A stretch of 64,000 nucleotides of DNA from Candidatus Spongiisociaceae bacterium (GTDB lineage: Bacteria > Actinomycetota > Acidimicrobiia > Spongiisociales > Spongiisociaceae): the NCBI GenBank assembly GCA_965213975.1, contig OZ243930.1, forward strand, positions 2,166,390 to 2,230,389. The letters are read 5' to 3'. The position numbers and the translations under genes were made by a program. Every line of letters starts with the position of its first letter. Position 1 is the stretch's first letter. The notes below the pieces were generated by a model. It was not told the DNA's origin and did no database searches. It saw only the letters and a program-made list of their open reading frames with translations. Of the stretch, positions 3,299 through 7,901 are shown piece after piece.

Positions 3299-3391
3299 TG
3301 GCGGAGGGGGTGGGATTCGAACCCACGAGGAGGTGCAACCCCCTACGGCATTTCGAGTGCCGCGCACTAGGCCAGACTATGCGACCCCTCC
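3299..3391 (-). tRNA. tRNA-Ser (anticodon CGA)
   Basis: The 93-nt reverse complement is GGAGGGGTCGCATAGTCTGGCCTAGTGCGCGGCACTCGAAATGCCGTAGGGGGTTGCACCTCCTCGTGGGTTCGAATCCCACCCCCTCCGCCA. It has a 7-bp acceptor stem, a long variable arm, a GTTCGAATC T-loop, an anticodon loop CTCGAAA, and an encoded CCA. Confidence 0.9.
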
Positions 3392-3425
3392 GGAGCCTAT
3401 GCAGTCTACCCATCCGACGCAGGCC

Positions 3426-3881
3426 CTAGCCTCGCCGGGACTTGAAGAAGTCCCTCAACAGGGCGGAACACTCCTCTTCTAACACCCCAGACACCAACTC
3501 GATCCGGTGGTTTAATCGCGGGTCCTGGGGAACGTTGTAGAGACTCCACGCCGCTCCCGCCTTGAGGTCAGCGGCACCATAGACGATCCGATCGACTCGC
3601 GCCGCTACGGCGGCCCCGGCGCACATTACGCAAGGCTCCAAAGTGACCACCAGGGTGTGGCCAGCCAAACGCCATCCGCCAACCCGGCGGCCCGCGGCCC
3701 CGAGCACCAGCAACTCGGCGTGAGCAGTCGGATCGTGGCTTGCTTCACGACGATTGTGGTCGGACGCCACCGCGGTCCCATCCGGTCCCACCAGCAACGC
3801 CCCCACCGGGACGTCGCCGTGTAGGGGAGCTTTGACAGCTTCGGCGAGGGCCATCTGCATCCAATGTTCCCAGGAAGACAT
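3426..3881 (-). CDS. tadA: tRNA-specific adenosine deaminase TadA
   Basis: The protein carries the CMP/dCMP deaminase zinc motifs HAE...PCVMCAGA. The start is taken at MSSWEH; an in-frame alternative exists at 3893. Confidence 0.85.
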   Translation of the reverse strand: MSSWEHWMQMALAEAVKAPLHGDVPVGALLVGPDGTAVASDHNRREASHDPTAHAELLVLGAAGRRVGGWRLAGHTLVVTLEPCVMCAGAAVAARVDRIVYGAADLKAGAAWSLYNVPQDPRLNHRIELVSGVLEEECSALLRDFFKSRRG

Positions 3882-3964
3882 CACACCCACCACTAGCGAT
3901 ACCGGCTACATGAACACCGTGCAGCCCGCCGTCGAATGCGGATCACGAGCACCTGGTCGGTCGC

Positions 3965-4098
3965 CGACTCCGGTCCGGCACCCCCACGGCACCCGGCTCC
4001 GTTCGCTTAGGGCTGCTTCCTCCCGGACCTGACCCGGTTCACGAAGGTTCCGCTGCGTAGGACCCGACCTTCAACACCACGTGCCGACCGGACGCTCG
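3965..4098 (-). ncRNA. ffs: Candidate signal recognition particle RNA (small 4.5S-type, ffs)
   Basis: The minus strand reads ...CCGGGTCAGGTCCGGGAGGAAGCAGCC..., which matches the SRP RNA domain IV consensus CAGGUCAGGUCCGGAAGGAAGCAGCC with a GNRA tetraloop. Terminal segments near 3971-3983 and 4081-4093 are complementary, which is consistent with the long SRP hairpin. The position beside tadA and tRNA-Ser is typical. Ends are approximate. Confidence 0.6.
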
Positions 4099-4250
4099 CT
4101 GTCACGACACCCTTCGACGGGCATTCCGCCCCGCTTCTAGAGGGTTTCGGGCTACAGGACACCCCTAGCGCCCCGCGTAGCACGGTCGTAGCCAGTCTAA
4201 CGAAGGTCCCTGAAACGGCCACGAAGCCCAGCCGGTAGAATTGGCAGCCC

Positions 4251-4340
4251 GGAGGGATCGCATAGTCTGGCCTAGTGCGCACGCCTGGAAAGCGTGTTGG
4301 CGTTTACCGCGCCTCGTGGGTTCGAATCCCACTCCCTCCG
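4251..4340 (+). tRNA. tRNA-Ser (anticodon GGA)
   Basis: The sequence is GGAGGGATCGCATAGTCTGGCCTAGTGCGCACGCCTGGAAAGCGTGTTGGCGTTTACCGCGCCTCGTGGGTTCGAATCCCACTCCCTCCG. It has an anticodon loop CTGGAAA, a long variable arm and a 7-bp acceptor stem. CCA is not encoded. Confidence 0.9.
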
Positions 4341-4513
4341 CTGGCTAGCCGTACTGTCCAGGGGGTTCAACCACCCCTCGCCCCACGTATGGGCCCACCG
4401 GCAGCTGTACGCCACCAACCAGGCCCTCACCACTTACACTGAACGTCTCGTCTAGGCGTCTGCGTAGCCGAGCGGGGGTTGATGTAGTCACATTGATGCT
4501 CTAAAGTGACCAC

Positions 4514-4768
4514 ATGAATGTCGGCATCCGTGAACTCAAGGCTCGTCTATCGGAGTACGTGAAGAAGGCTGCGGCGGGAGAGCATATCCTCGTGACCGAC
4601 CGGGGCAGGCCGGTTGCGAGACTCGAAGGCCTAGGCGGCTCATCGAGGGTGGAAAGAGGGATCGCTGAGGGGTGGATAACGCCCCCGGCGCGCTCCGGAC
4701 TCACACCCGCCGTGTACTACAAGGCTTCTCGGAGCACCATGGAGGTGATAGACGAGGATCGGGGATGA
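4514..4768 (+). CDS. Type II antitoxin, Phd/YefM-like
   Basis: The 84-aa protein begins MNVGIRELKARLSEYVKKAAAGEHILVTDRGRPVARL, which is the canonical Phd/YefM N-terminus. Its stop overlaps the PIN-toxin start (ATGA at 4765-4768). Confidence 0.8.
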   Translation: MNVGIRELKARLSEYVKKAAAGEHILVTDRGRPVARLEGLGGSSRVERGIAEGWITPPARSGLTPAVYYKASRSTMEVIDEDRG

Positions 4769-5166
4769 CCCTTTATGTCGACACGAGTGCCCTGATCAAG
4801 CGGTATGTCCACGAGCGGGATTCCGAAGTCGCCGAGCAGCTGATGATGACCGATCCCGTACTCGTGACCTCGTGGCTCACCGAAGTCGAGCTGCGTCGCA
4901 ACCTCACTCGCCTCCTTGACGGTGACGATCTTGTCAGCGCCCGTCGTCGTGCCCAGGCAGACTTGGGCGCGTTCGCGCTGGTCAACCTCGATGCGGCTAC
5001 CTGCACCGATGCTGCCCGCATTGCGGAGCAGACACTGTGCCGTTCGCTCGACGCACTGCATGTGGCCGCCGCACTCCGCATAGGTCAGTTAACGACTTTG
5101 CTCACCTTTGACATACGCCAAGCTCAAGTCGCACGATCAGTAGGCCTCTCCGTCGTCGGAGTTTGA
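4765..5166 (+). CDS. vapC: PIN-domain toxin VapC
   Basis: The protein begins MTLYVDTSALIKRY and contains ...TSWLTEVEL... and ...LDALHVAAAL..., giving the PIN acidic quartet pattern. It is translationally coupled to the upstream antitoxin. Confidence 0.8.
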   Translation: MTLYVDTSALIKRYVHERDSEVAEQLMMTDPVLVTSWLTEVELRRNLTRLLDGDDLVSARRRAQADLGAFALVNLDAATCTDAARIAEQTLCRSLDALHVAAALRIGQLTTLLTFDIRQAQVARSVGLSVVGV

Positions 5167-5384
5167 CCAAAGGAGCATCTCACACATGGGGTCAAGATCT
5201 GATATAGGTCCCCTTCCGACCCAGGTAGGCGCGGACTTCTTCAGCCTTGTGGCGTATGTCGTCCTTTTGTGTGAACTTCGACCGGTACAGAAATGGGCTC
5301 TGGTTAAGACCCCGGATCGGCACATGGAAAAGTCAAGCAAGCTTGGCATAGCGATCGAGGACCTGAACGAATAGTCAACCCGCC

Positions 5385-7646
5385 CTAGTTCCAGTGATCG
5401 CGAGTGTACTCGTATTGGTCGTTGCCATACAGTTGCTTGGTCGCGTTACCGACCCGAACCCAAAAGTCGCTGGCGGTTGTGCCGCCATCCTGTGCTCGCG
5501 CGAACACCGGCTTTCCAGAAGATGAAACAAAAACGACACATACTGTGCCCGTTGAGGTCTCCTCGAAGGCAATCTCTACTACCTTGGCAGTCGAGATTGA
5601 GAGGTCTGCGTCAAGTCGCTGGCGTAGCCACAGTTCGTAAGAGTCGGTGTTCCTTCTCGCTTTGGTCATGGAGGAGAAATCAGGCCCGAGGCCTAGGACC
5701 GCGCCTTGGTCGTCCACGCCAATCAGAAGTGTCCCGCCATCAGAGTTGAGAAACCCGGCCACCGTCTTGACAATCACGTGTTCCATCGCCTTGTCAGACC
5801 GTCGGGCCCTCAGGTTGTAGCGAGCAGTCGACTTGAACTCGAGTGTCTGGGACTCACCAGCCTTAAGCATCTGCTGCAAGGTCGTGGAAGCTTGCCCGGG
5901 CACATGCCCTATCCGACTGAATCCCTGCCTGGTCACCCGGGCCATCAGCTTGCGGCGCTTCTCCAAGAATTCGGCGTAGTTCAACTGCTCCCAGCCGATA
6001 GGCAAGGCATGCAGGCGCGCCTGCTTGTCGAGCCGGCCGGACGCAAACCGGGCTGCCAAGGGGGGCCAGTAATCAGCGGGGCCAGCGGCACCCTTCGACA
6101 CGTCATCGGGCTGATCCATGAAGCCGGTGTTGGCGATGGCGTTATAGTCCGTGGATTTTTTCAGTCCCAGGGTTGCTAAATAGGCCCGCGGGAAAAGAAG
6201 GTCTCTGTCGAGCGACACCTTGGAACGTGGACCGGCGTCGAGCAGATCCCGCACGCGCTGCCTGCCCAGGAGCGTTTCCGCGTCGAGCAGCACCAGTGCC
6301 GCCCAATACGCCGACAGGGGTGCCGACTTGGGTGCCGATGTGTCGAGCTGGTTGGGAAGTGTGATCTCCCAGTAGTCGGATGTGAACTCAACCCCGATCA
6401 GTCGGTCCAACACCTCGAGAAACGCTTGGCCGTCCGAACCTGCCTGGGAGATGCGATTCAGATCGGATTGCAGTTGGCTCTCGGAAGAGCCCGTGTAGCG
6501 CCTAGTAGCGTGGGCCATGAAGAACCAGCGGGCGATCGCGTCATCAAGGGACGAAGTATCGGCATCCGTATCCCTTAGGCCGATCAACCAGATTATGTAG
6601 CAATATAGAACGGCAATGTCAGAGGTAATCATCCGCCGATCCCGGAATCCGGCCGTTCTCAGACATTCGAGGAAGCGACTCCAATTGGTGAGGTCCAACA
6701 CCTCGTCCTGCGCGCGCCTAAGCTCTCTGAACTGCCGATCTCGCCGTACCTCCGAGATCTCCCCGGTATCGAGGTCCTTGCCGCGCAAGATGTTGTAGAC
6801 GGTCGCCAAACTGCCCCTACGGAAGGCCAGTCCGACCGAGACACGCAACATCTGGTCGGCGTCGGGATCGATAAACGGGTTCCTCGGAGACCGCTGGCCC
6901 GGACTCGCGGTTCTGGCTTCTCGGCAGAAGTCCTCGAGTTGGCGGCGGCCCTTATCCCAGTACACCGACATCAGCGTCAGGATGAAGTTCGCCCGGTTGA
7001 GAATGGCCCCCTGGGAATTGGTTCGCACGAAGACTTCGGCCACCACGTCCGCTTCGACCCGTTCATTGATTTCGATGGCGTGAAACGCGAACCGTTGGAG
7101 GTCCCGGACCCGGTCGATCCGATCCTCGTATAGGTCCTTGTCCTGCTGGGTGATGTCTGTATGGCGTGAAGCTTGGAGACGGGACAGGAACTCGCGAACG
7201 GTCTGGCGATGGCTGACCCAGATTGCGGAAATGTCGGGAAGGTACTCGGGGTCCTGGCGAATCGCTGCGTTATACACATCGAAGGTCTCCGCCACCGGAT
7301 TAAAGGCTATGCGGATGCGCCTTTCTGTGAAGTTCTTGGTTAGAACGGCTTCGCCCGTGAGGATTGCATACAGGGATGTCAACCGCTGCTGGCCGTCTAC
7401 GATGGCCAATTTGGCCACCGACGTTGCGCTGTCATCGATCTGGCGTAGGTTCGCATCAGCGCCGGTATCCCAGAAGAGAAGGGAGCCGACCGGAAACCCC
7501 CGATACATAGAATCGATCAGCTCGCGGGCCTTCGTATTACCCCATACGAACGGTCGCTGGATATCCGGCAACCCGATCCTACCCTCGCTGATGTCTTCGA
7601 TCAGGGAGCCGAGAGAGTAAGTGGTGGTTCGGTAGAGGCTGGACAT
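5385..7646 (-). CDS. GmrSD-like DUF262 (ParB/Srx-fold) protein with a C-terminal AlbA_2/Schlafen-like domain; candidate stand-alone defence nuclease
   Basis: The N-terminus has the motifs IQRPFVW...DGQQRLTSL...FVRTNSQGAILNRANF, which define DUF262 (GmrSD/SspE/BrxU-type NTP-binding ParB-like domain). The C-terminal ~140 aa read TLEFKSTARYN...AGFLNSDGGTLLIGVDDQGAVLGLG, which matches the AlbA_2 'divergent AAA/Schlafen' DNA-binding domain. The middle region may hold a degenerate DUF1524-like segment. The start is placed at MSSLYRTT (ATG 7644-7646) with an AGGAAGG upstream; the ORF could extend in frame to 7706. Confidence 0.75.
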   Translation of the reverse strand: MSSLYRTTTYSLGSLIEDISEGRIGLPDIQRPFVWGNTKARELIDSMYRGFPVGSLLFWDTGADANLRQIDDSATSVAKLAIVDGQQRLTSLYAILTGEAVLTKNFTERRIRIAFNPVAETFDVYNAAIRQDPEYLPDISAIWVSHRQTVREFLSRLQASRHTDITQQDKDLYEDRIDRVRDLQRFAFHAIEINERVEADVVAEVFVRTNSQGAILNRANFILTLMSVYWDKGRRQLEDFCREARTASPGQRSPRNPFIDPDADQMLRVSVGLAFRRGSLATVYNILRGKDLDTGEISEVRRDRQFRELRRAQDEVLDLTNWSRFLECLRTAGFRDRRMITSDIAVLYCYIIWLIGLRDTDADTSSLDDAIARWFFMAHATRRYTGSSESQLQSDLNRISQAGSDGQAFLEVLDRLIGVEFTSDYWEITLPNQLDTSAPKSAPLSAYWAALVLLDAETLLGRQRVRDLLDAGPRSKVSLDRDLLFPRAYLATLGLKKSTDYNAIANTGFMDQPDDVSKGAAGPADYWPPLAARFASGRLDKQARLHALPIGWEQLNYAEFLEKRRKLMARVTRQGFSRIGHVPGQASTTLQQMLKAGESQTLEFKSTARYNLRARRSDKAMEHVIVKTVAGFLNSDGGTLLIGVDDQGAVLGLGPDFSSMTKARRNTDSYELWLRQRLDADLSISTAKVVEIAFEETSTGTVCVVFVSSSGKPVFARAQDGGTTASDFWVRVGNATKQLYGNDQYEYTRDHWN

Positions 7647-7901
7647 GGCGGGCAAGTCTACCTTCCTGGTGTGACACCAACAGATGTGACACCAACAGAA
7701 GCCCACTACCGTCGACGATAATCACGAGTCCCCCTAGCTCGACTCGACACCCGCAGATAAGACACTCGCCGGCAAACCCGGGCAGCTCAACCAGTGGCCA
7801 GTTGGGGCTTGGATCGCACTGAGGCGTCGCGCCCGCTTTGTCGGTGGCAGTTGCTATTTGTGAGCCAGTCGGTAGTTTGAAGCCGCTCACGGTGGTGGTT
7901 G

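What the first reader, a model, noticed from the sequence alone, without database searches (positions are those of the whole stretch)
5385..7646. Orphan GmrSD-like DUF262 protein with a C-terminal AlbA_2/Schlafen-like domain, a candidate single-gene defence system
The N-terminus carries both DUF262 hallmarks, (I/V)QRPFVW...DGQQRLTSL and FVRTNSQGAILNRANF. These define the NTP-binding ParB/Srx-fold module of type IV restriction enzymes (GmrSD, SspE, BrxU). Canonical members carry a clear DUF1524 His-Me nuclease downstream. This protein does not: it has a ~350-aa helical middle segment with at best a degenerate DUF1524-like stretch (…DRDLLFPRAYL…YNAIANTGFMDQPDD…). It then ends in a well-preserved AlbA_2 domain (TLEFKSTARYN…AGFLNSDGGTLLIGVDDQGAVLGLG), the prokaryotic relative of Schlafen cores. 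I cannot recall DUF262 fused to AlbA_2 as a described defence family. The gene sits 1 kb from tRNA-Ser(GGA), convergent with a Phd/VapC module and in a lower-GC pocket, which is typical defence-islet context. Schlafen-type domains act on tRNA/rRNA in eukaryotes, so nucleic-acid cleavage or sensing through the C-terminal domain is plausible.
Basis: partly seen in the sequence, partly recalled or inferred. Interest (0 to 1): 0.8.

Follow-up and report, generated by a model that had tools for sequence, protein, structure and literature searches.

The report
BrxU-like DUF262–Schlafen defence protein, HNH-dead
This gene encodes a single-protein candidate anti-phage system that joins a type IV-restriction-like (GmrSD/BrxU) body to a Schlafen RNase; the architecture was already shown to defend E. 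coli in a 2025/26 study, but this copy has lost the catalytic histidine of its DNA-cutting site while keeping the RNase site.

Summary
Window 5385-7646 (-) encodes a 753-aa protein with Pfam GmrSD_N/DUF262 (aa 13-222, E=6e-29) and SLFN_AlbA_2 (aa 598-738, E=4e-15).

The novelty claim does not hold. DUF262-Schlafen fusions are a described class of prokaryotic Schlafens (1.8% of 5,930). One member, EcoSlfn7, protects E. coli about 540-fold against T7 (Perez Taboada et al., Nat Microbiol 2026).

The protein also belongs to a very large, strongly conserved, full-length family. It occurs in at least 427 GTDB species across many bacterial phyla and in archaea, at 40-69% identity apart from one 95%-identical copy.

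The "helical middle" is the rest of a BrxU-like GmrSD enzyme and includes a divergent HNH/His-Me nuclease. Family members carry ERHHLFP…NAIAN…N. The window lineage has DRDLLFP (catalytic His to Leu483), so its DNase site is very probably dead.

A Streptomyces clade lost the same histidine independently. Both lineages remain under purifying selection (dN/dS about 0.1). The DGQQR NTPase motif and the Schlafen Ex4ExK…D site never vary.

Best reading: a stand-alone, horizontally mobile defence gene. The GmrSD body senses and regulates, and the Schlafen RNase is the essential effector.

It is a new member of a known kind, with an undescribed HNH-dead twist. Interest is moderate.

The parts
5385..7646 (-). 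CDS, 753 aa: BrxU-like GmrSD (DUF262 + helical linker + degenerate HNH) fused to a C-terminal Schlafen/AlbA_2 nuclease domain
6981..7610 (-). DUF262 / GmrSD_N ParB-like NTPase domain (aa 13-222), including IQRPFVW (7542-7562) and RELIDS (7509-7526, the counterpart of BrxU RLFDS)
   Evidence: Pfam E=5.8e-29; BrxU 7p9k hmmsearch E=6.6e-15; coordinates; BrxU motifs
7383..7397 (-). DGQQR nucleotide-hydrolysis motif (aa 84-88); present in 236/236 scorable database relatives and 80/81 genome loci (the exception is an N-terminally shortened ORF call)
   Evidence: function of the motif (Payne et al.)
6267..6980 (-). Helical linker region (aa 223-460) corresponding to the GmrSD/BrxU inter-domain linker
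   Evidence: AF2 model is mostly helical with pLDDT 80-94 from about aa 310; Foldseek alignment to BrxU over 663 columns; BLASTP to a 599-aa stand-alone DUF262 protein over aa 1-569, E=2e-90
5892..6266 (-). Divergent HNH / His-Me (DUF1524-like) nuclease domain (aa 461-585), catalytically degenerate here
6189..6209 (-). DRDLLFP (aa 480-486) in place of family ERHHLFP / BrxU DHIYP: E480D, H482D, H483L, so the HNH general-base His is lost
   Evidence: the BrxU D/H mutant and HEC-06 E471A and H472A mutants lose defence
6102..6143 (-). NAIANTGFMDQPDD (aa 502-515): the HNH N…N…N part. N502 and N506 are kept; N515 (equivalent to the metal-binding Asn of Cas9 HNH by my motif mapping) is replaced by Asp
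5433..5855 (-). Schlafen / AlbA_2 nuclease domain (aa 598-738), homologous to the C-lobe of SLFN11/13/14
   Evidence: Pfam E=4.3e-15; PDB profile hits SLFN11 1.9e-6 and SLFN14 3e-6; Foldseek hits DIP2311, SLFN13, SLFN14, SLFN5, SAMD9 tRNase
5832..5855 (-). ESQTLEFK = Ex4ExK catalytic motif of Schlafen RNases (E598, E603, K605); found in all 236 full-length database relatives scored
   Evidence: motif definition
5709..5720 (-). GVDD (aa 643-646); aligns with GVDD of SLFN11, and D646 is invariant in alignment A1
7647..7674 (-). Ribosome-binding region (AGGAAGG). This is the only flanking DNA shared with the 93%-identical copy in an unrelated contig, so the shared unit is the bare gene

Best explanation
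The gene encodes a stand-alone, horizontally mobile anti-phage protein of the DUF262-Schlafen class. It is a complete BrxU-like GmrSD type IV restriction scaffold: a ParB-like DUF262 NTPase, a helical linker and an HNH domain. A Schlafen RNase domain is fused to its C-terminus. In most of the family both nuclease sites look intact. In this lineage the HNH general-base histidine has been replaced (Leu483), so DNA cleavage by that site is very probably lost. The inferred mechanism is as follows. The GmrSD body still binds and hydrolyses NTP and recognises an infection cue, most plausibly modified or otherwise foreign DNA, as BrxU does. That event licenses the Schlafen domain to cut tRNA or other RNA, which shuts down translation and blocks phage production. 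What is shown here: the domain identities, the motif states, conservation, mobility and purifying selection. What is inferred: the trigger, the RNA target and the defence phenotype.
For: Domains: Pfam GmrSD_N plus SLFN_AlbA_2. The best PADLOC hit is HEC-05 (E=1.4e-30), and HEC-05 is BrxU. The best PDB sequence hit is BrxU 7p9k (E=6.6e-15), followed by SLFN11, SLFN14 and Slfn8 for aa 596-725. An AF2 model (pLDDT 74) matches BrxU over 663 columns (E=4e-11); its C-terminus matches SLFN13, SLFN14, SLFN5, SLFN11 and the SAMD9 tRNase. A 599-aa stand-alone DUF262 protein aligns to aa 1-569 (E=2e-90), with DVHHIFP opposite DRDLLFP. A sub-profile of this region finds the Cas9 HNH domain as its best PDB match, aligned on the N…N…N motif (E=0.058).

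Motif states: DGQQR is present in 236/236 scorable database relatives and Ex4(E/D)xK in 236/236. HH is present in 232/236, and the catalytic His is missing only in the window lineage. Among 81 genome loci a Streptomyces clade has also lost it (DRDNLFH). That clade is separated from the window clade by HH-bearing branches in an NJ tree.

Not a pseudogene: dN/dS between the window copy and the 95%-identical copy is 0.109 overall (HNH region 0.12, Slfn 0.19). The Streptomyces HNH-dead clade gives 0.09-0.14.

Mobility and stand-alone status: the 93%-identical copy lies in an IS-rich, unrelated context, and homology stops at the stop codon and 28 nt upstream of the ATG. No neighbour family occurs in more than 8 of 81 loci. 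Recurrent neighbours are type I R-M subunits, Fic and DNA methylases, and several loci have the gene embedded as hsdM-hsdS-[gene]-hsdR. This is the pattern reported for GmrSD-like defence genes.

Precedent: the DUF262-Slfn fusion EcoSlfn7 defends E. coli against T7 and other phages. RorSlfn5 is a phage-activated tRNase whose E/D motif is required.
Against: No experiment exists for this protein or for any close relative. I could not obtain the EcoSlfn7 sequence, so full-length homology to the one validated DUF262-Slfn protein is untested. Pfam's GmrSD_C model reaches only sub-threshold scores (E 0.05-0.2), and the Cas9-HNH match is borderline (E=0.058). The HNH assignment therefore rests on motifs, BrxU fold similarity and transitive homology. 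The AF2 model is weak in the DUF262 domain (pLDDT 40-70). In the window itself the neighbourhood examined is housekeeping apart from Phd/VapC. A Leu at the general-base position does not strictly prove loss of all DNase activity. The independence of the two His losses rests on a rough NJ tree.
Confidence: 0.6

Rival explanations
1. The GmrSD/HNH part is the effector (a modification-dependent DNase as in BrxU) and the AlbA_2/Schlafen domain is only a nucleic-acid-binding sensor or specificity module. On this view the window copy, lacking the HNH histidine, is a functionally crippled or decaying allele.
For: About 98% of family members keep ERHH. BrxU and HEC-06 need the (D/E)H pair for defence. 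AlbA_2 domains bind DNA in some structures, for example the SAMD9 DBD 7ksp among the Foldseek hits.
Against: The Slfn catalytic residues (E598, E603, K605, D646) are kept in every full-length relative scored, including all HNH-dead ones. Two separate HNH-dead lineages persist under purifying selection (dN/dS 0.09-0.14). Reading frames are intact over 753-758 codons.
Confidence: 0.2
2. It is a dual-nuclease enzyme family in which the window lineage has re-specialised. The dead HNH pocket (D480, D482, N502, N506, D515) has become a ligand, metal or DNA-binding regulatory site rather than simply being lost.
For: The window lineage and the Streptomyces clade show parallel substitutions at the same positions: E to D, H to D and N to D (DRDL…PDD versus DRDN…PADE). 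dN/dS in the HNH region stays below 1 (0.12; 0.13-0.41).
Against: The parallelism could be chance or mutational bias in high-GC Actinomycetota. dN/dS in the HNH region is somewhat raised in the Streptomyces clade, which is consistent with simple relaxation. There is no structural evidence for a new ligand site.
Confidence: 0.12
3. It is not a defence gene. It is a housekeeping or stress RNA/DNA-processing enzyme, or the toxin-like cargo of a mobile element.
For: In the window it sits between tRNA genes, a TadA-like deaminase and serS, with no recognised defence genes besides Phd/VapC. Many homologous loci have metabolic neighbours such as sulfatase, Dak and SDR genes. About 30% of pSlfn genes have no defence neighbour.
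Against: Distribution is patchy across many phyla and archaea at 40-69% identity. No synteny is conserved. A 93%-identical copy lies among IS elements. GC is lower than the surroundings. The protein is homologous to BrxU, and the architecture class has a proven defence member.
Confidence: 0.08

Closest known systems
EcoSlfn7 / the 'DUF262-Slfn' composition class of prokaryotic Schlafens (Perez Taboada et al., Nat Microbiol 2026; PMC13056530)
   Same: It has the same defining domain composition: a PF04326 Schlafen domain with Ex4(E/D)xK fused to DUF262. It is a single gene. The class is predicted to pair a sensor with a Slfn RNase effector. EcoSlfn7 lowers T7 plating about 540-fold.
   Different: The held text of the paper mentions only DUF262 for this class and neither an HNH/DUF1524 part nor its loss. 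E. coli complete genomes contain nothing detectably similar at DNA level to two low-GC family members.
BrxU (PADLOC HEC-05), GmrSD-family type IV restriction enzyme, PDB 7P9K
   Same: It is the best sequence and fold match. Shared features are the DUF262 domain with an IQRxFVW-type segment, the RLFDS-like motif (RELIDS), DGQQR, a helical linker and an HNH region. The fold alignment spans 663 columns. Like BrxU and other GmrSD-likes, family members are often embedded in type I R-M loci.
   Different: Sequence identity is only about 16%. There is an extra 170-aa C-terminal Schlafen nuclease domain. Where BrxU has DHIYP, the window protein has DLLFP, so the catalytic His is lost. Dimerisation and modified-DNA specificity are unknown.
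RorSlfn5 and eukaryotic SLFN11/13/14 and SAMD9 tRNases
   Same: The Schlafen C-lobe fold and the E…E.K…D active site are shared. In these proteins a fused sensor domain activates tRNA cleavage.
   Different: The sensor module is different: a GmrSD body rather than an Ig-like domain, a helicase or other modules. There is no evidence here on RNA target or trigger.
ParB(DUF262)-HNH(DUF2081)-HEPN fusions such as VNG7073 (Anantharaman et al. 2013, PMC3710099)
   Same: The logic is analogous: a GmrSD-like ParB+HNH body fused to an RNase effector. The distant full-length relative on the halophilic archaeon DL31 plasmid is annotated DUF2081, as is the Desulfonatronospira relative.
   Different: The RNase is HEPN rather than Schlafen. 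The fusions were only predicted computationally.
SspE (PT-sensing DUF262-DUF1524 nicking enzyme)
   Same: It has a DUF262 NTPase plus an HNH-type nuclease and acts as a single-protein defence effector.
   Different: There is only a weak N-terminal PADLOC match (E=5.5e-5, aa 5-97). No ssp/dnd genes were seen among the neighbours examined. The protein is not a member.

Membership tests
Prokaryotic Schlafen (pSlfn), DUF262-Slfn composition class (pSlfn7-type) | Full-length PF04326 Schlafen/AlbA_2 domain (>100 aa) | tested here: met
   PF04326 at aa 598-738, E=4.3e-15, 56.7 bits against a cutoff of 25.3.
Prokaryotic Schlafen (pSlfn), DUF262-Slfn composition class (pSlfn7-type) | Catalytic Ex4(E/D)xK motif plus downstream Asp | tested here: met
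   ESQTLEFK (aa 598-605) aligns with SLFN11 ESQSIEFK, and GVDD (643-646) aligns with GVDD.
Prokaryotic Schlafen (pSlfn), DUF262-Slfn composition class (pSlfn7-type) | Fusion of the Slfn domain to a DUF262 domain in one polypeptide | tested here: met
   PF03235 at aa 13-222, E=5.8e-29, in the same ORF.
Prokaryotic Schlafen (pSlfn), DUF262-Slfn composition class (pSlfn7-type) | Sequence homology to the validated member EcoSlfn7 over the full length | not tested
   No supplementary tables are held and the text gives no accession. The indirect searches all failed.
Prokaryotic Schlafen (pSlfn), DUF262-Slfn composition class (pSlfn7-type) | Anti-phage phenotype and phage-triggered tRNA cleavage | not testable with these tools
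   This needs cloning, phage challenge and RNA end-mapping.
Prokaryotic Schlafen (pSlfn), DUF262-Slfn composition class (pSlfn7-type) | Known defence gene within 10 kb (a supporting criterion, not a defining one, in the paper) | tested here: inconclusive
   In the 14 kb examined in the window, only Phd/VapC is present; PADLOC gives only weak generic matches. Among homologous loci, type I R-M, Fic and methylase neighbours recur but are a minority.
GmrSD / BrxU-type type IV restriction enzymes | N-terminal DUF262 with the DGQQR NTP-hydrolysis motif (and a BrxU-type RLFDS-like motif) | tested here: met
   DGQQR at aa 84-88 and RELIDS at aa 41-46. BrxU 7p9k E=6.6e-15.
GmrSD / BrxU-type type IV restriction enzymes | C-terminal DUF1524 / HNH (His-Me) nuclease domain present as a fold | tested here: inconclusive
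   Pfam GmrSD_C is sub-threshold in homologues (E 0.05-0.22) and absent in the window protein. In support: the BrxU fold alignment over 663 columns, the 2e-90 alignment to a stand-alone DUF262 protein with HHIFP…N…N, and the Cas9-HNH match at E=0.058.
GmrSD / BrxU-type type IV restriction enzymes | Catalytic (D/E)-H dyad of the HNH motif (BrxU DHIYP; HEC-06 EHICP) | tested here: not met
   The window has D482-L483 (DLLFP), whereas the family has HHLFP in 232/236. The protein should therefore not be filed as an active GmrSD restriction endonuclease.
GmrSD / BrxU-type type IV restriction enzymes | Cleavage dependent on modified (5mC/5hmC/glc-hmC) DNA | not testable with these tools
   This is a biochemical property.
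SspE (Ssp phosphorothioate-sensing system) | Full-length match to SspE profiles and association with sspABCD | tested here: not met
   Only aa 5-97 match (E=5.5e-5). No ssp genes were found among the neighbours scanned.

The most novel reading that the evidence does not exclude
Within the GmrSD-Schlafen family the HNH DNase is dispensable and has been lost at least twice (the window lineage and a Streptomyces clade), while the NTPase motif and the Schlafen site stay intact. On this reading a type IV restriction enzyme scaffold has been exapted into a pure sensor, probably of modified or foreign DNA, that licenses a Schlafen tRNase. It would be a natural 'separation-of-function' variant showing that restriction-type DNA recognition can be rewired to abortive, translation-targeting immunity.
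Probability: 0.35. Interest if true: 0.6.

Novelty: new member of a known kind. Interest (0 to 1): 0.4.

Why it matters
The DUF262-Schlafen class has one positive phage assay (EcoSlfn7) and no mechanism. This analysis shows that at least one large, cross-phylum DUF262-Slfn family is a complete BrxU-like GmrSD enzyme plus a Schlafen domain, that is, a potential dual DNase/RNase.

Nature has also run the mutant experiment. Lineages that lost the HNH histidine persist under purifying selection, whereas no full-length relative scored here has lost the Schlafen site. That points to the RNase as the indispensable effector and supplies ready-made constructs: the window protein against its 69%-identical HH-bearing relative P0002. 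These could be used to test how a restriction-type sensor is coupled to tRNA cleavage, a mechanism shared with human SLFN11 and SAMD9.

As a genome-annotation matter the gene itself is ordinary. It should be labelled a GmrSD(BrxU)-like/Schlafen fusion defence candidate, not a new system.

Tried and rejected
(1) Obtaining EcoSlfn7 for direct comparison failed. Neither paper version has supplements held, and the text gives no accession. Only the UC4224 assembly number was found (GCA_025369975.1), which the tools cannot open. tblastn of the Slfn domain against plasmids gave no Escherichia hit. blastn of two low-GC family genes against 5,426 E. coli genomes gave no match. A second protein search seeded with a 33%-GC gammaproteobacterial member listed no E. 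coli protein among its best 120.

(2) tRNA-targeted integration was rejected. There is no att-like direct repeat of the tRNA-Ser 3' end, and only 3 of 58 homologous loci have a tRNA within 10 kb.

(3) A conserved partner gene or operon was rejected. The largest neighbour cluster covers 8 of 81 loci.

(4) The pseudogene or decaying-allele idea was rejected, given intact frames and dN/dS of 0.11.

(5) Exact-sequence look-ups of the window's own protein and of SerS, meant to find the source contig or an island-free relative, found nothing on record. The island borders in this genome therefore remain undefined.

(6) Pfam on the isolated HNH region gave only sub-threshold GmrSD_C hits, and NCBIfam gave nothing.

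(7) The promoter/terminator scan was uninformative.

(8) The 'mad2' PADLOC hits among neighbours are probably generic SAM-methyltransferase matches. The window's UbiE-like methyltransferase hits the same profile at E=4e-4. I did not count them as defence genes.
Full report
**1. The observation**

The six-frame ORF list shows a 773-codon GTG ORF at 5385..7706 on the minus strand. The real start is the ATG at 7646, giving 753 aa. Three things support this: an AGGAAGG ribosome-binding site lies just upstream, homologues begin at the aligned MS(N/S)LYR, and nucleotide similarity to the closest relative begins only 28 nt upstream of this ATG.

Pfam gives GmrSD_N/DUF262 for aa 13-222 (E=5.8e-29) and SLFN_AlbA_2 for aa 598-738 (E=4.3e-15). 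It reports nothing in between. NCBIfam has no model.

The described context is correct:
- tRNA-Ser(GGA) lies at 4251-4341.
- A Phd antitoxin and a PIN toxin lie at 4514-5166 on the plus strand, convergent with the gene.
- There is a mild GC dip: 0.588 for the gene against 0.616 for the window.

**2. What the middle of the protein is**

The region between the two Pfam domains is not an unrelated helical filler. The evidence is as follows:
- The best PADLOC profile is HEC-05 (E=1.4e-30, three stretches). Payne et al. state that HEC-05 is BrxU, the BREX-associated GmrSD-family type IV restriction enzyme.
- A profile built from 32 full-length homologues finds BrxU (7P9K) as the top solved structure (E=6.6e-15).
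- An AlphaFold2 model (mean pLDDT 74; weak in the DUF262 domain, good from about aa 310 on) aligns to BrxU over 663 columns (Foldseek E=4e-11).
- Many roughly 590-600-aa stand-alone "DUF262 domain-containing proteins" on plasmids match aa 5-580 at 25-30% identity. The Priestia one aligns over aa 1-569 with E=2e-90.

It can be compared with BrxU DHIYP and HEC-06 EHICP.

Pfam's GmrSD_C model sees this segment only below threshold (E 0.05-0.22). A sub-profile of the region has the Cas9 HNH domain as its best PDB hit, aligned on the N…N…N part (E=0.058). From the textbook Cas9 motif DxDHIVPQS…DNKVL…N (my own knowledge), I map H483 to the general-base His, N506 to the structural Asn and N515 to the metal-binding Asn.

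The family is therefore a full GmrSD (ParB-like NTPase, linker, HNH) with a Schlafen domain added at the C-terminus.

**3. The Schlafen domain**

Profile search against solved structures aligns aa 596-725 with the C-lobe of SLFN11 (E=1.9e-6), SLFN14, Slfn8, SLFN12 and SLFN5. ESQTVEFK sits opposite SLFN11 ESQSIEFK, and GVDD sits opposite GVDD. Foldseek adds DIP2311, SLFN13 and the SAMD9 tRNase domain. The window protein has E598-x4-E603-x-K605 and D646. This matches the Ex4(E/D)xK motif that Perez Taboada et al. use to define catalytically competent prokaryotic Schlafens.

**4. It is already a described kind**

Perez Taboada et al. (bioRxiv 2025; Nat Microbiol 2026) catalogued 5,930 prokaryotic Schlafen proteins in 55 domain compositions. 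DUF262 fusions make up 1.8% of them. The E. coli UC4224 DUF262-Slfn protein (EcoSlfn7) reduced plating of a broad range of phages, T7 by 538-fold. A different class member, RorSlfn5, was shown to be a phage-triggered tRNase.

By their criteria (PF04326 longer than 100 aa, the motif, and Pfam composition) the window protein falls into the DUF262-Slfn class.

I could not obtain EcoSlfn7's sequence. Direct homology to the validated protein remains untested.

**5. Size and spread of the family**

The first protein search returned 120 listed relatives, all of them 750-841 aa. All carry PF04326 plus PF03235 at 54-95% identity over 98-100% of the query. The best 80 loci show 40-67% identity over essentially the full length (one, L072, is truncated). 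They come from Acidimicrobiia, Streptomyces, Mycolicibacterium, Nocardia, Microbacterium, Acidobacteriota, Chloroflexota, Planctomycetota, Gemmatimonadota, Bacteroidota, Desulfobacterota, Clostridia and alpha- and gammaproteobacteria.

A second search, seeded from a 33%-GC gammaproteobacterial member, added methanogenic archaea, a CPR bacterium (Collierbacteria), Zixibacteria and Nitrospinaceae, at 56-61% identity to the seed for all but its closest few relatives. More distant full-length versions (24-26% identity) lie on Sinorhizobium and haloarchaeal plasmids.

Such high conservation across phyla, combined with patchy occurrence, indicates horizontal spread under strong constraint.

**6. Mobility and neighbourhood**

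The closest relative (P0001, 95% aa and 93% nt identity) sits in a different context full of IS110, IS21 and DDE transposases. Nucleotide similarity to the window covers only 5385-7674. It ends exactly at the stop codon and 28 nt upstream of the ATG. The shared unit is thus the bare gene.

I clustered 1,340 ORFs from 82 loci. No neighbour family is present in more than 8 of 81 loci, so there is no obligate partner.

The most recurrent neighbours are:
- type I R-M subunits: HsdM in 8 loci, two HsdR families in 6 and 5 loci, HsdS in 4;
- Fic/DOC in 4 loci;
- C5-methylases in 4 loci;
- SNF2 helicases.

These come and are confirmed on the 149 immediate neighbours. In L054, L053 and L050 the gene lies between hsdS and hsdR, preceded by hsdM in L054 and L053. 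This is the "embedded" arrangement that Payne et al. report for BrxU and other GmrSD-like genes.

Many other loci are flanked by metabolic genes. In the window itself, the 14 kb examined around the gene is housekeeping: an iron/siderophore ABC transporter, PNPOx, a TadA-like deaminase, two tRNA-Ser genes, a UbiE-like methyltransferase and serS. It contains only the Phd/VapC pair and no PADLOC defence hit.

tRNA adjacency is not a family trait (3 of 58 loci), and no att-like repeat flanks the gene. The "defence islet" argument is therefore weak for this locus. The case for defence rests on homology and family-level context.

**7. The lineage-specific loss of the HNH histidine**

Across 236 scorable database relatives the dyad is HH in 232, SH in one and RH in one (one further sequence could not be parsed at this site). 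Only P0001, from the window lineage, lacks the second, catalytic His. DGQQR and Ex4(E/D)xK are present in 236 of 236. The window has D-R-D-L-L-F-P, that is E480D, H482D and H483L, and it has QPDD in place of WPEN, that is N515D.

In BrxU, Ala substitution of the Asp and the His of this motif abolishes defence; in HEC-06, E471A and H472A do the same. The window protein's DNase site is therefore very probably inactive.

Among the genome loci, a Streptomyces clade of about ten species has DRDNLFH, DRGNLFH or DRDRLF, again with N to D in the third Asn position. Its sister, a Nocardia sequence, has ERWH.

In a neighbour-joining tree the window+L001 pair groups with P0003 (EQSH) and L002/L041 (PRHH). 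It is separated from the Streptomyces clade by many HH-bearing branches. The HNH segment of the window protein is also visibly closer to P0002's than to the Streptomyces one. I therefore infer at least two independent losses. The caveat is that this is a rough distance tree.

These are not decaying genes. Nei-Gojobori dN/dS between the window copy and L001 is 0.109 overall: DUF262 0.09, linker 0.09, HNH region 0.12, Slfn 0.19. Pairs within the Streptomyces clade give 0.09-0.14 overall. Their HNH region is somewhat higher at 0.13-0.41. No full-length relative has lost the Schlafen motif.

**8. Mechanism proposed**

Shown here:
- a BrxU-like NTPase/linker/HNH body with an intact NTPase motif;
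- an HNH site without its general base;
- an intact Schlafen catalytic site;
- single-gene mobility;
- purifying selection.

Inferred from the named families:
- The DUF262/linker/HNH body recognises a nucleic-acid cue under NTP control, as GmrSD, BrxU and SspE do.
- It thereby licenses the Schlafen domain to cleave tRNA or other RNA, as in RorSlfn5, SLFN11 and SAMD9. This would give translation arrest and reduced phage yield.
- In HH-bearing relatives, DNA cleavage and RNA cleavage may act together. In the window lineage only the RNase can.

Rivals are weighed in the structured fields. They are: Slfn as a mere binding module with HNH as the effector; re-specialisation of the dead HNH pocket; and a non-defence role. 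The main argument against the first is the invariance of the Slfn active site together with the persistence of HNH-dead lineages.

**9. Verdict**

The finding is real and its domain reading is right, but the architecture is neither orphan nor undescribed. It is a new (actinobacterial-type, high-GC) member of the known DUF262-Schlafen defence class and, structurally, a BrxU-like GmrSD-Schlafen fusion.

Two points go beyond what I could find in the literature searched. First, this large family carries a complete but divergent HNH domain. Second, that domain's catalytic histidine has been lost recurrently under continued purifying selection, while the Schlafen site is never lost.

This is a useful mechanistic lead rather than a new kind of system. 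Interest is 0.4.

Noticed in passing
window 7670-7699: There is an exact 15-nt tandem duplication (TGTGACACCAACAGA x2; on the gene strand TCTGTTGGTGTCACA x2) 24-53 nt upstream of the ATG. It lies right at the point where similarity to the 93%-identical copy in L001 breaks off. It could be an operator, a promoter element or a recombination scar. L001 has unrelated sequence there.
   Followed up: partly
L023-L027, L029-L031, L034, L035 (Streptomyces spp.), HNH region of the homologous gene: A whole Streptomyces clade of the family has also lost the HNH histidines (DRDNLFH, DRGNLFH, DRDRLF; WPADE instead of WPEN). It keeps DGQQR and Ex4ExK, and dN/dS is 0.09-0.14. L031 (DRYH) and the sister Nocardia sequence L032 (ERWH) look like intermediates.
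   Followed up: partly
L054 6180-15399; L053 2897-16500; L050 7-6112; also L007 and L028: In L054, L053 and L050 the DUF262-Slfn gene is embedded inside a type I R-M operon, between hsdS and hsdR in the same orientation (preceded by hsdM in L054 and L053). In L007 and L028 it lies adjacent to type I R-M genes. This is the 'embedded defence gene' arrangement described for BrxU/GmrSD-like genes.
   Followed up: partly
window 4514-5166 (+); L001 13783-14632; L002 13821-14123; L041 13813-14091: A Phd-like antitoxin also lies 1.5 kb downstream of the gene in L001, L002 and L041 (38-39% identical to the window Phd for the L002 and L041 copies). It is followed by a PIN toxin in L001 (33% identical to the window PIN, E=1e-11). 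Orientation and spacing differ, and VapBC modules are abundant in Actinomycetota (my own knowledge), so this may be coincidence.
   Followed up: partly
L001 12680-13786 versus L002 12372-13811 and L041 12343-13782: L001 shares downstream synteny with L002 and L041: a 368-479-aa protein with no Pfam match, 77% identical and N-terminally shortened in L001. Its upstream side is replaced by IS110, IS21 and DDE transposases. The window copy (93% nt identical to L001's) is at a completely different locus, which suggests recent transfer of just the gene.
   Followed up: partly
L036 and L039 (contigs JAXLTD010000005 and JAXLTD010000007 of one Solirubrobacteraceae MAG): The same MAG carries two full-length paralogues of the family (46-47% identical to the window protein) on different contigs.
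   Followed up: no
immediate neighbours of the gene in two of the 80 loci (alignment A4): Two immediate neighbour ORFs themselves carry a SLFN_AlbA_2 domain (best E=4.4e-15), so a second Schlafen-type gene lies next to the DUF262-Slfn gene in those loci.
   Followed up: no
plasmid hits H3 (halophilic archaeon DL31), H4 (Haloquadratum walsbyi C23), H2 (Sinorhizobium meliloti): Distant full-length relatives (24-26% identity, 98-99% coverage) are plasmid-borne in haloarchaea and rhizobia. The DL31 one is annotated 'DUF2081', the name Anantharaman et al. 2013 used for the HNH part of ParB-HNH-HEPN fusions.
   Followed up: no
window 3299-4341: Two tRNA-Ser genes (CGA on the minus strand at 3299-3391, GGA on the plus strand at 4251-4341) are divergently arranged around a TadA/MafB19-like deaminase gene (3426-3893, -). 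They show up as a 93-nt, 81%-complementary inverted repeat. This looks like ordinary housekeeping.
   Followed up: no
window 5137-5349 (-): A 70-aa ORF lies 36 nt downstream of the gene on the same strand. It has no Pfam or PADLOC match and is not conserved in L001. It is probably not a gene.
   Followed up: partly
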